Source: Escherichia coli (GTDB lineage: Bacteria > Pseudomonadota > Gammaproteobacteria > Enterobacterales > Enterobacteriaceae). Taken from it: DNA of 64,000 bases. The stretch lies in the NCBI RefSeq assembly GCF_045037415.1, contig NZ_CP173438.1. The stretch is one strand, 5' to 3'. Positions 15,970 through 18,603 of the stretch are shown piece by piece. The translations under genes were made by a program, and so were the position numbers. The stretch's first letter is position 1; every line of letters starts with the position of its first letter. The notes beneath the pieces were generated by a model. That model did not search any database. It was given only the letters and a program-made list of their open reading frames with translations, and was not told the DNA's origin.

Positions 15970-18603
15970 TTATTTGGGAAGCGCAGTTCCCCATTCACGC
16001 CACTCTTTCGGTTCACTTTCCTGCAACAGGAAGTGCTTGCCTTCCTGGGCTTTCGGTGCCAGTGGCGTACCCGGAGGCGTGGCGAAGGCGATGCCGCCAC
16101 GGATAAACTGGTTAAAGGTGCCGGTTTTCACTACGCCGCCCGTCAGACCAAAGTCCAGACTGTAACCCGATGCCAACCAGAAGACGGAATTGTTACGCAC
16201 CAGGTGTTGATAGCGTTTACTGATGCGCATCGCAATCATCACGCGATCTGACAATGTCCCCAGCGTCATTCCGGTAACCGTACCTACTTCCAGACCACGG
16301 AACAGCACAGGTGTACCGATACCTAACGAACCGGCTTCCGGCGCTTCAACAATAATGCTTAAGCCATCCAGGTAACGCGAATCAGTAATGGTGGCCTCTT
16401 GTAATTCAAAGTCGCGGCGAGGATTGCCCCGGCCTGGTTCGACGTTGATATACGGCTGGAGGATAGTATCAAGATGCTCAACGCCAGCTGCCGAAATTTG
16501 CGGTGTGACCACTGAGAAGCGCGTACCACCGCGAGCAAAGGTCTGGACATATTCCGGATAGAGCACCGCCTTTGCCTGTACTTCATTGCGCGCGGTAATC
16601 AGATCCAGCGTCTGGATTTGCCCGATATCAATACCGAGATAGCGAATTGGCATCCCGACCGCCAGTTTTCCGGCATCGAAAGCGTGAAGCGTAATTTGCC
16701 CGCCAACCGCACGGGCCGCTGTTTCGGAAGCATACAGAATACGCTTGTCGCCTTTACGCTGACTGGCGCTGGCACCGCTGAGGTTATCGAAGCTAATAGC
16801 CCCCTTTAATGCTCTGGAGAGCGGGGATGCCTGTACGGTCAGGCCACTACCATTCAGCTGAACTTTCGCCCCACCTTCTGCCCAGAACACGCTGTTGCTG
16901 GTCAGAAGGTTGCGATACTCCGGTTTAATATGCAGATCGATATCAAACGCGTTAGCTCGCGGACGCACAGTAATAACTTCACCAACTTCAAATTTACGGT
17001 ACAGCACTACCGATCCTGCCTGCACATCCGGCAGCGTCTCTGCACTCAAACTCACGGTTGTGGTGGGTAAATCGCTAAGGCTGTTCTCCAGCGCTTTTTC
17101 CAGATTGGCATACAGTGGATAGCTGGCTTTCATCTCGCCTTTATCGCCCGGCAGAATACGTATTCCGCCATTGATCCATTCTGAGGCGCTGGCACCGAGA
17201 AACTCAACGCCATCCAGCCCCACCTTCACGTCGACACGGCTGTTGACGACAAATTTGCTATCGCCTTTTACCAGTTCGCGATGCTGAGGCTCGATGGCGA
17301 CGGTAAAGGTGACGCCTTTGCTGGTGAGTTTACGATCGATAACCTGGCCTACCTGCACGCCGTGAAGAATGAGCGGCTGACCAGCATCAATACCGTAACT
17401 TTCTGGTGCTGTCAGGGTCAGTGTCAGAACATCCGGCTCTTGCAGCAGGGCTTTTTCGCCTGGCACAACCACGAACTCCTTACGTGGCTCGCCATCGCCG
17501 GGCACCAGTTCGAAGGTTTTGCCGGTCAGCAGGGCACTGAGATTAGCATCGCTAAGGGATAATTTTGGATTACGTAATTCGATGCGGGTATTTTCACGAA
17601 GCAGGGTGACGACGCTGGGATCAACGGTCATTTCCCCAGTGACTTTACCACCAGGATTTAAATCCAGTTTAGTCAGCTGTCCGACTTCCAGCCCCTGATA
17701 CATTAACGGCGTCGAGTCGGCGGTTAATCCGGCACCGCCTGGCAGTTCCAGTTTTATTATTACGCCACGTTGGCTATGGGCCAGGTCTTCATACAGACCA
17801 AAGGTATCTTCCGCTTCGGCAGGTTTCGACTCTTCAGGTGAATCGAAGGCAATCGCACCGTTAACCAGTGCCGCCAGACTTTCCAGTTTCACCTTCGCGC
17901 CACTGATACTGACGTTGGCATCAACGCCGGAAACGTTCCAGAAACGGCTACCTTTTTTCACCAGATCGGTAAAACGCCGCTCGATCAGGACATCAATCAC
18001 CACGCCTTGCTTGTTGGGATTGATGGCATAGTCGTAGACTTTACCCACCGGGATCTTGCGGAAATAGACCAATGAACCACTGCTCAGTGAACCGAGATCG
18101 GGGGCTTGCAGGTGGATCATCAGATCGCCATTGTCCAGCCGATATTTCGGTTGGGTGTCGAGTGCGACAAAGTGATCCTGCTCTTTACCTTTACCCGGCA
18201 TCATGCCGATATAATTACCACCGACGAGGGCGTCCAGCCCGGAGACACCTGCCAACGAGGCCTTTGGCGTCACCAACCAGAACTGTGTCTCTTCGCGCAG
18301 CGCATCTTTCATATCGGACTTGATGCTGACCTTGACTTCAATCTTACGAAGATCGTCGCTGAGGCTGATATCCTGCACTGTTCCAACTTCAACGCCCTGA
18401 TAACGAACAGGCGTACGGCCTGGAACAATACCATCCGCCGACATAAAGTCGATGGTGACAGTATTGCCCCGGTCCTGATAACTGTCCCAAATCAGCCAAC
18501 CAGCAATCATTAGCGCGATGAACGGCAGCAGCCAGAAAGGTGAGATACGGCGTTTATTTTTAATCTGCGCTTCAGTCGTCGAAGCGGGCGTTTCCTGACT
18601 CAT
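15970..18603 (-). CDS. yebT: MCE-domain lipophilic envelope-spanning tunnel protein (LetB)
   Basis: 877 aa from ATG 18603 (MSQETPAS...); multiple tandem MCE repeats; upstream in-frame extension rejected. Confidence 0.9.

What the first reader, a model, noticed from the sequence alone, without database searches (positions are those of the whole stretch)
18572..18603. 32-nt overlap of yebS stop and yebT start
The chosen yebT start (ATG 18603, giving 877 aa) lies inside the 3' end of yebS, implying translational coupling of the PqiA-like and MCE-tunnel partners. The ORF track's longer 891-aa frame would overlap even more.
Basis: partly seen in the sequence, partly recalled or inferred. Interest (0 to 1): 0.15.

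Follow-up and report, generated by a model that had tools for sequence, protein, structure and literature searches.

The report
Known 32-nt letA/letB gene overlap
The end of the E. coli lipid-transport gene letA (yebS) really does overlap the start of its partner letB (yebT) by 32 bases, but this is the standard annotation and has been stated in print, so the finding is correct and ordinary.

Summary
Observation confirmed exactly. On the minus strand, yebS/letA (18572-19855, 427 aa, stop TGA 18572-18574) and yebT/letB (15970-18603, 877 aa, ATG 18601-18603) overlap out of frame by 32 nt. RefSeq annotates this for an identical E. coli locus and for K-12 MG1655. Santarossa et al. (Nature 2026) state that the genes "overlap by 32 bp".

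The ATG start is well supported. It is invariant in 80 Enterobacteriaceae species. The rival in-frame ATG 18609 is missing in about 20 species and TTG 18645 in 3. Common substitutions upstream of the ATG are silent in LetA but radical in the LetB frame, and inside the overlap this reverses. Distant homologues have matching N-termini. In vitro retapamulin profiling (INRI-seq) finds a start peak there in 5 of 5 replicates.

The letB initiation region sits inside letA. About 50 nt upstream of the ATG shows strongly suppressed synonymous change. LetA's conserved Trp-Asp codons (TGGGAT) provide a weak Shine-Dalgarno-like GGGA. All ten distant letA-letB loci also overlap, by 4-56 nt.

Translational coupling is plausible but not shown. 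The site initiates without letA translation in vitro, non-overlapping refactored genes were used for functional assays, and the 6 LetB : 1 LetA complex argues against strict 1:1 reinitiation. Already known; low interest.

The parts
18572..19855 (-). yebS / letA CDS (427 aa), the PqiA-family inner-membrane partner of LetB
   Evidence: ORF. TIGR00155 PqiA/YebS family scores 701 bits against a cutoff of 260. Pfam PqiA matches in 2 stretches. RefSeq annotation.
15970..18603 (-). yebT / letB CDS (877 aa), an MCE tunnel protein with 7 MlaD/MCE domains
   Evidence: Translation. Pfam MlaD matches in 7 stretches. 100% identical to cluster P0002, named 'lipid-binding membrane homeostasis protein YebT', 877 aa. 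RefSeq annotation.
18572..18603 (-). 32-nt out-of-frame overlap. It encodes the LetA C-terminal tail (H418-D427 plus the stop) and LetB residues 1-11.
   Evidence: Stated as '32 bp' in PMC13017536. Of 79 Enterobacteriaceae loci with both ORFs called, 75 have 32 nt and 4 have 44 nt.
18601..18603 (-). letB start codon ATG
   Evidence: Invariant in all 81 junction sequences. INRI-seq peak at the K-12 equivalent position 1917510 in 5 of 5 replicates. The reading frame under selection switches at this point.
18572..18574 (-). letA stop codon TGA
   Evidence: In 4 species it is mutated to GGA, which is synonymous in LetB, and LetA then ends 12 nt later.
18609..18612 (-). Weak Shine-Dalgarno-like GGGA, made from the LetA Trp415-Asp416 codons TGG GAT. 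Five nt lie between it and the ATG.
   Evidence: Sequence. Duplex energy with the anti-SD is only -4.0 kcal/mol, and 24% of positions in the operon do as well. TGGGAY lies 4-13 nt before the letB start in 10 of 11 lineages.
18581..18653 (-). Block of nearly invariant nucleotides (about -50 to +22 relative to the ATG). Interpreted as the letB translation initiation region embedded in letA; it includes the invariant rare Leu codons TTA CTT.
   Evidence: letA third-position entropy is 0.13 bits in the last windows against 1.18 gene-wide. Codons 401-417 score 0.33 bits against a minimum of 0.82 in 656 background windows.
18607..18609 (-). Alternative in-frame ATG (would give MHMSQ..., 879 aa). Probably not the main start.
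   Evidence: Absent (ACG or ATA) in about 20 of 80 species, including the E. coli species representative. The GGGA abuts it with zero spacing.
18643..18645 (-). TTG that heads the mechanical 891-aa ORF. Not a start; it arises from the LetA Leu-Ala codons cTT Gct.
   Evidence: Lost in 3 Citrobacter species. The 14 codons after it carry L/Q, W/L/S, T/I and M/T replacements that are all silent in LetA. The letB frame is closed 9-21 nt upstream of the start in 7 of 10 distant homologues.
15937..15962 (-). Terminator-like GC-rich hairpin just after the letB stop. A possible operon terminator, but the T-run is weak.
   Evidence: Consensus scan only: 11 pairs, 8 of them GC. Not tested further.

Best explanation
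This is the native junction of the E. coli letA-letB (yebS-yebT) operon. LetB is translated from ATG 18603. That codon lies 4 nt downstream of the codons for LetA's last conserved motif (...LDSRLLWD). LetA's reading frame then runs on for 11 more codons, encoding a variable and structurally unresolved tail, until it meets a TGA inside letB. That produces the 32-nt overlap. The letB ribosome-binding region is therefore written inside letA. It comprises a weak GGGA Shine-Dalgarno element supplied by the Trp-Asp codons, an A/U-rich UUACUUU stretch made of rare Leu codons, and an accessible AUG. This is why about 50 nt of letA upstream of the ATG are frozen at synonymous sites.

Shown here: the coordinates, the start codon, conservation of the overlap across the family, the synonymous-site constraint, and stand-alone initiation in vitro.

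Inferred: in vivo, letB is translated mostly by fresh initiation at this embedded site. That allows more LetB than LetA, as the 6:1 complex needs. Ribosomes finishing letA give at most a modest assist, by keeping the site unfolded or by occasional reinitiation.
For: The coordinates match the annotation, and the overlap is stated in the literature. The ATG is invariant in 81 sequences and the overlap is kept at 32 or 44 nt in 79 loci.

Selection switches frame at the ATG. Upstream, the common variants at -38, -35, -23 and -5 are silent in LetA and radical in the LetB frame. Inside the overlap, the variants at +14 and +23 are silent in LetB and change the LetA tail.

Synonymous entropy of letA codons 401-417 is 0.33 bits, against a background minimum of 0.82 over 656 windows.

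INRI-seq finds a peak at this start in 5 of 5 replicates (30-69 CPM) on an mRNA carrying only 30 nt of upstream sequence. The letB template was at 58.7 CPM. letA gave about 7 CPM from a template at 541 CPM.

The AUG has an unpaired probability of 0.87, against a mean of 0.46 in 400 synonymous recodings.

The LetA C-terminal extension is unresolved in cryo-EM and the LetB TM helix spans about residues 14-45. The complex is 6 LetB: 1 LetA.

All ten distant letA-letB loci overlap, by 4-56 nt. The WD codons lie 4-13 nt before the start in 10 of 11 lineages, and the LetA tail varies from 3 to 19 aa in those ten (the eleventh, L089, has a much longer tail). LetA-PqiA homology ends at this same WD motif.
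Against: No in vivo start-site signal is available: the Ribo-RET value for yebT in the INRI-seq comparison table is 0, presumably because expression is low. The N-terminomics supplement searched had no LetB peptide. The Shine-Dalgarno match is weak and not better than many random positions. The accessibility result is modest: 3.8% of recodings are as open at the AUG, and 11% over the whole -18..+12 region. I could not retrieve in vivo LetB:LetA synthesis rates, so the claim of mostly independent initiation is inference. The per-transcript INRI-seq ratio is a crude normalisation of an in vitro experiment. The invariant block could carry another function as well.
Confidence: 0.8

Rival explanations
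1. Obligatory translational coupling by termination-reinitiation. The ribosome that terminates at the letA UGA (18572-18574) moves back about 30 nt and restarts at the letB AUG, as proposed for the phage fr coat-lysis pair with its 34-nt overlap. LetB synthesis would then depend on LetA synthesis.
For: The genes overlap and encode subunits of one complex. The SD is weak. The overlap is conserved across the family. The phage fr 34-nt and MS2 50-nt precedents are described in the reviews read. [quoted passage not shown]
Against: The 6:1 LetB:LetA stoichiometry cannot come from reinitiation at 1:1 or less. The letB start is recognised de novo in vitro without letA translation. A refactored non-overlapping letAB plasmid served as the functional wild type for deep mutational scanning. 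Experiments in E. coli and H. volcanii show that reinitiation efficiency falls steeply once stop and start are about 20 nt apart.
Confidence: 0.12
2. Coupling by RNA unfolding. The letB ribosome-binding site is buried in secondary structure and is opened only when ribosomes translate the end of letA.
For: The review notes that this model suits long overlaps such as the MS2 coat-lysis pair. A small conserved hairpin (GGCUG-GGAC-CAGCC, 18621-18634) lies just upstream of the SD.
Against: The predicted fold of the junction is no more stable than shuffled sequence (z = -0.35). The AUG is predicted 87% unpaired and more open than 96% of synonymous recodings. The isolated site initiates in vitro. There is no Rfam match.
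Confidence: 0.08
3. LetB starts elsewhere: at TTG 18645 (891 aa, 74-nt overlap) or at ATG 18609 (879 aa, 38-nt overlap). In that case the 32-nt figure would be an annotation artefact.
For: Both codons are in frame with no intervening stop in the window. Some database entries are 878-879 aa. The nucleotides between TTG and ATG are highly conserved. The INRI-seq template lacked the TTG, so the assay could not test it.
Against: The TTG is lost in 3 species and ATG 18609 in about 20, while ATG 18603 is never lost. The putative extension takes radical replacements that are silent in LetA. Of 10 distant homologues, 7 have a stop 9-21 nt upstream of the start in the letB frame, and all have N-termini the length of the 877-aa form. 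ATG 18609 has no spacer after the GGGA. The INRI-seq peak falls in the 12-18 nt window measured from the annotated ATG.
Confidence: 0.05
4. The invariant block around the junction serves a different purpose, such as an sRNA, ProQ or Hfq binding site, an RNase processing site or a DNA-level signal. The overlap would then be incidental to that function.
For: The synonymous constraint extends about 50 nt upstream, somewhat further than a minimal ribosome footprint. A small conserved hairpin followed by a U-rich tract is present. proQ is a near neighbour.
Against: There is no Rfam match at E<=1 and no promoter-like site at the junction. The fold is not unusual. The block is centred on the start codon and spans the classical initiation region. 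No direct evidence was found for any such factor.
Confidence: 0.1

Closest known systems
E. coli K-12 letA (b1833) / letB (b1834) operon, formerly yebS-yebT
   Same: This is the same locus. The junction DNA is identical to MG1655, with the same 427-aa and 877-aa products and the same 32-nt overlap. The overlap is explicitly reported by Santarossa et al., Nature 2026.
   Different: Nothing of substance. The window comes from another E. coli strain; its 4-kb locus is 100% identical to strain SK1144 and others.
Paralogous E. coli pqiA-pqiB-pqiC operon
   Same: A PqiA-family membrane protein is followed by a multi-MCE protein. LetA and PqiA are 29% identical, and their homology ends at the same ...RL(L/S)WD motif followed by a short acidic tail.
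   Different: pqiA and pqiB do not overlap. pqiB starts 4 nt after the pqiA stop and has a strong GAGGAG Shine-Dalgarno element. pqiB and pqiC overlap by the common 4 nt. In letAB the downstream start has moved up to just after the WD codons, so the tail codons overlap letB.
Canonical short-overlap (ATGA / TGATG) translationally coupled gene pairs
   Same: A co-directional pair in one operon encoding subunits of one complex, with the upstream stop downstream of the next start.
   Different: The overlap is 32 nt rather than 1 or 4 nt. The stoichiometry is 1:6 rather than about 1:1. The downstream start initiates independently in vitro. One distant homologue (L089) does have the 4-nt ATGA form.
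Phage fr (34-nt) and MS2 (50-nt) coat-lysis overlaps
   Same: The overlap is of similar length, with the downstream start inside the upstream gene's 3' end.
   Different: In the phages the downstream start is silent without upstream translation or termination. Here the start is active on its own in vitro and is predicted to be accessible.

Membership tests
PqiA/YebS (LetA) family transporter subunit | Matches the family profile above the curated cutoff, with two PqiA modules | tested here: met
   TIGR00155 scores 701.4 bits against a cutoff of 260.35. Pfam PF04403 matches in 2 stretches.
PqiA/YebS (LetA) family transporter subunit | Encoded immediately upstream of a multi-MCE-domain gene in the same orientation | tested here: met
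   The same arrangement holds in 80 Enterobacteriaceae loci and 10 distant loci.
PqiA/YebS (LetA) family transporter subunit | Zinc-ribbon Cys pairs preceding each transmembrane module | tested here: met
   The sequence shows CPQC...CPRC and CLGC...CPRC, and these align with the PqiA cysteines. Zn binding itself was not tested here.
LetB / YebT (7-ring MCE tunnel) | Seven MCE (MlaD) domains after one N-terminal TM helix, about 877 aa | tested here: met
   Pfam PF02470 matches in 7 stretches. The hydrophobic segment [17 protein letters not shown] lies at residues 26-42. 100% identical to the YebT cluster P0002.
Translationally coupled gene pair (termination-reinitiation class) | Stop and start codons overlap or lie within a few nt (-4, -1, up to about +10) | tested here: not met
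   Stop and start are 32 nt apart.
Translationally coupled gene pair (termination-reinitiation class) | Translation of the downstream gene depends on translation of the upstream gene | not testable with these tools
   This needs reporter genetics. The indirect evidence is against strict dependence: INRI-seq finds a peak without letA translation, and a refactored non-overlapping construct was used functionally.
Translationally coupled gene pair (RNA-unfolding class) | The downstream ribosome-binding site is sequestered in secondary structure that upstream translation opens | tested here: not met
   The fold z-score is -0.35. The AUG has an unpaired probability of 0.87 and is more open than 96% of synonymous recodings. 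These are predictions only.

The most novel reading that the evidence does not exclude
The roughly 70-nt invariant block (18581-18653) is a dedicated, autonomous internal initiation site. It has co-opted LetA's conserved Trp-Asp codons as its Shine-Dalgarno element across gamma-proteobacteria, and it sets LetB synthesis several-fold above LetA to match the 6:1 complex. The overlap itself would then be a neutral by-product of a dispensable LetA tail reading on into letB.
Probability: 0.4. Interest if true: 0.25.

Novelty: already known. Interest (0 to 1): 0.08.

Why it matters
It matters little beyond housekeeping. The check confirms that the annotated letB start and the unusual 32-nt overlap are real rather than a start-codon miscall.

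There is a practical consequence. Mutations or deletions at the 3' end of letA, including precise letA knockouts and C-terminal tags, will hit the letB ribosome-binding site and first codons. Polar effects on LetB should therefore be expected. The published refactored construct was evidently built to avoid this.

The embedded, highly conserved initiation region offers a simple and testable account of how a 1:6 subunit ratio could be produced from one mRNA.

Tried and rejected
In vivo start-site evidence could not be obtained. The Ribo-RET preprint has no supplements held. The Ribo-RET column in the INRI-seq table gives 0 for yebT. The TRAINSPOTTER N-terminomics supplements contain no LetB or YebT entry.

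In vivo LetA and LetB abundance or synthesis rates could not be obtained either. Li et al. 2014 is not held. The Mori et al. 2021 supplements gave no hits. No paper combines yebS, yebT and ribosome profiling.

A structured RNA element at the junction was rejected. There is no Rfam match even at E<=1, and the fold is no more stable than shuffles.

An internal promoter for letB was rejected: no sigma-70-like site lies near the junction, and the whole region holds fewer promoter-like sites than shuffles.

A hidden third ORF at the junction was rejected: only a 26-aa antisense ORF (18518-18598) is listed, with no supporting evidence.

A 14-aa N-terminal extension from TTG 18645 was rejected on its substitution pattern, its loss in 3 species, and the closed frames in distant homologues.

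SD strength does not explain the synonymous constraint. Synonymous recodings keep the same SD energy because the GGGA is fixed by the Trp-Asp codons.

Full report
**1. What is in the sequence**

The finding lies on the minus strand. Reading 18720 to 18480 in reverse complement gives ...CTT ACT TTG GGA TGC AC**A TG**A GTC AGG AAA CGC CCG CTT CGA CGA C**TG A**AG....

- The 427-aa ORF 18572-19855 ends ...[15 protein letters not shown] with its TGA at 18574-18572.
- The second frame is open from 18651. It has a TTG at 18645 (the mechanical 891-aa ORF) and in-frame ATGs at 18609 and 18603.
- With ATG 18603 the product is 877 aa. The shared bases are exactly 18572-18603, 32 nt, with the two frames offset.

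**2. Identity**

- The upstream protein matches the PqiA/YebS family (TIGR00155, 701 bits; Pfam PqiA in two stretches).
- The downstream protein carries seven MlaD/MCE domains.
- The 4-kb locus is 100% identical to several E. coli chromosomes and is present in 5424 of 5426 complete E. coli genomes.
- RefSeq annotates yebT and yebS with the same ends and the same 32-nt overlap.
- In K-12 MG1655 the genes are letA (b1833, 1916258-1917541) and letB (b1834, 1917510-1920143). The junction DNA is identical to the window.
- The overlap is in print. Santarossa et al. [quoted passage not shown]

The finding is thus already known.

**3. Is ATG 18603 the right start?**

Both were examined.

(a) Enterobacteriaceae comparison. 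I fetched 80 species-representative loci.
- The ATG is invariant in all 81 junction sequences.
- ATG 18609 is replaced by ACG or ATA in about 20 species, including the E. coli species representative.
- TTG 18645 is lost in three Citrobacter species.

(b) Substitution pattern.
- Upstream of the ATG, the four common polymorphisms (-38, -35, -23, -5) are all silent in LetA. In the LetB frame they cause L/Q, W/L/S, T/I and M/T changes, so that stretch evolves as LetA-only coding.
- Inside the overlap, the common changes at +14 and +23 are silent in LetB and alter the LetA tail (A/P, and D/A/T).
- The frame under selection therefore switches at the ATG.

(c) Distant LetB homologues (34-54% identity), taken from an exhaustive representative search.
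- Their N-termini align within a few residues of the 877-aa form.
- In 7 of 10 loci the letB frame is closed by a stop 9-21 nt upstream of the start.

(d) Start-site profiling. INRI-seq is in vitro translation of synthetic mRNAs that carry 30 nt upstream plus 153 nt of CDS, stalled with retapamulin.
- It reports a peak at yebT position 1917510 in all five replicates (29.8-69.1 CPM).
- The in vivo Ribo-RET value in the same table is 0, i.e. not detected.

Together these strongly support ATG 18603. Minor use of ATG 18609 in strains that have it cannot be excluded. However, the GGGA abuts that codon with no spacer.

**4. Anatomy of the junction**

Third-position entropy in letA averages 1.18 bits across the 75 gap-free species. 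It collapses to about 0.13 bits in the last windows. The collapse begins about 50 nt upstream of the ATG, well outside the dual-coding 32 nt.
- Codons 401-417 have a synonymous-codon entropy of 0.33 bits.
- The minimum across 656 background windows of the same size in letA and letB is 0.82 bits.
- Two rare Leu codons (TTA CTT at -16..-11) are almost invariant (one variant each among 75 species).
- GGGA at -9..-6 is the only Shine-Dalgarno-like element. It is weak (-4.0 kcal/mol; 24% of positions in the operon do as well).
- That GGGA comes from LetA's Trp415-Asp416 codons.

In distant lineages the same LetA motif ([LF]D[ST]R[LI][LIM]WD, codons TGGGAY) sits 4-13 nt before the letB start in 10 of 11 lineages. 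The LetA tail beyond WD then varies from 3 to 19 residues in those ten. The called overlaps are 4, 8, 8, 11, 11, 14, 14, 17, 23 and 56 nt.

Within Enterobacteriaceae, four species have mutated the TGA to GGA, which is silent in LetB. This lengthens the overlap to 44 nt.

LetA-PqiA homology ends at the same WD motif. In the paralogous operon, pqiB starts 4 nt after the pqiA stop behind a strong GAGGAG element.

The LetA C-terminal extension is unresolved in the cryo-EM structure, and the LetB TM helix spans about residues 14-45.

The simplest reading follows. The letB initiation region is anchored just after LetA's last functional motif, and the overlap length is simply where the dispensable LetA tail happens to meet a stop.

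**5. Mechanism: is it translational coupling?**

The overlap by itself does not show coupling. Several results point to an autonomous start site.
- The site initiates in vitro without any letA translation.
- Per unit template the letB signal is far higher than the letA signal. letB gave about 49 CPM from a template at 58.7 CPM, and letA about 7 CPM from a template at 541 CPM. This is a crude, in vitro normalisation.
- The junction is not predicted to be unusually structured (z = -0.35).
- The AUG is predicted 87% unpaired, more open than 96% of 400 synonymous recodings of the upstream letA codons.
- A refactored, non-overlapping letAB plasmid served as the functional wild type in deep mutational scanning.
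- The complex contains six LetB per LetA. Reinitiation by the terminating ribosome can give at most 1:1.
- Published work finds that termination-reinitiation falls off steeply when stop and start are about 20 nt apart. Long-overlap phage cases (fr 34 nt, MS2 50 nt) are special systems in which the downstream start is otherwise silent.

My best account is therefore mostly de novo initiation at an embedded, selectively maintained initiation region. Any help from letA-translating ribosomes is secondary. That last step is inference, because I could not retrieve in vivo synthesis rates.

**6. Alternatives for the conserved block**

There is no Rfam match, no promoter-like site and no credible extra ORF. 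A small conserved hairpin (18621-18634) followed by a U-rich stretch lies inside the block and was picked up by the terminator-like scan. That scan found no more sites than shuffles did, so the hairpin's role, if any, is unknown.

**7. Verdict**

The start-codon choice is confirmed. The interpretation as translational coupling is only partly supported. This is the standard, published architecture of a well-studied operon, so novelty is nil and interest is low.

The modest added value is threefold: the evolutionary evidence for the start, the family-wide conservation of an overlapping junction anchored on the WD codons, and the strongly constrained embedded initiation region. The last of these carries a practical warning for anyone editing the 3' end of letA.

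Noticed in passing
L085 2501-5170 and L086 1399-4068: A full-length LetB homologue (889 aa, 43% identity) has no adjacent letA/pqiA gene. 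It sits 15 nt after a lipid A acyltransferase-family gene and before luxS. This looks like an 'orphan' LetB whose membrane partner, if any, is encoded elsewhere.
   Followed up: no
L090 817-2023; L091 769-2011; L092 787-2008; L093 783-2008; L094 781-2017; L095 856-2014: In six distant lineages letA is naturally split into two half-size PqiA ORFs. In four loci the halves overlap by 8-20 nt, in L093 they share 1 nt, and in L095 a 40-nt gap separates them. This mirrors the engineered split-LetA construct in Santarossa et al.
   Followed up: partly
window 18621-18634 (minus strand): A small hairpin, TGGCU-GGAC-AGCCG, followed by CUUACUUUGG, lies inside the invariant block upstream of the letB start. 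The common variant at -23 falls in the loop, and the rare -20 C>U keeps a G-U pair. The same GGCTGGACAGCCG string is kept in L084 (54% LetB identity). Function unknown.
   Followed up: partly
window 12870-13014: The known antisense sRNA pair SraC/RyeA (minus strand, 176 bits) and SdsR/RyeB (plus strand, 114 bits) is present.
   Followed up: no
window 28502-28962 and 48011-48096: Rfam matches to the cspA thermoregulator family (135.6 bits, plus strand) and to the sroD sRNA (115 bits, plus strand). Both are expected features of this E. coli region.
   Followed up: no
proteins P0003-P0008: Shigella flexneri YebT entries are 832 aa rather than 877 aa, with 94% identity over the full query. This suggests an internal deletion of about 45 residues in that lineage.
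   Followed up: no
L008, L064, L070: Some assemblies show a truncated or frame-shifted yebT. Citrobacter amalonaticus AUH_CA_2023_1 has a 742-codon ORF. Kluyvera ascorbata ATCC 33433 and Trabulsiella odontotermitis strain 01 lose frame early. These are either pseudogenes or assembly errors.
   Followed up: no
summary: One of the 5426 matching places in complete E. coli genomes lies on a record classed as a plasmid, and one genome holds two copies of the letAB locus.
   Followed up: no
window 15937-15962 (minus strand): A GC-rich hairpin of 11 pairs lies immediately after the letB stop. It is a possible operon terminator ahead of rsmF, although its T-tract is poor.
   Followed up: no
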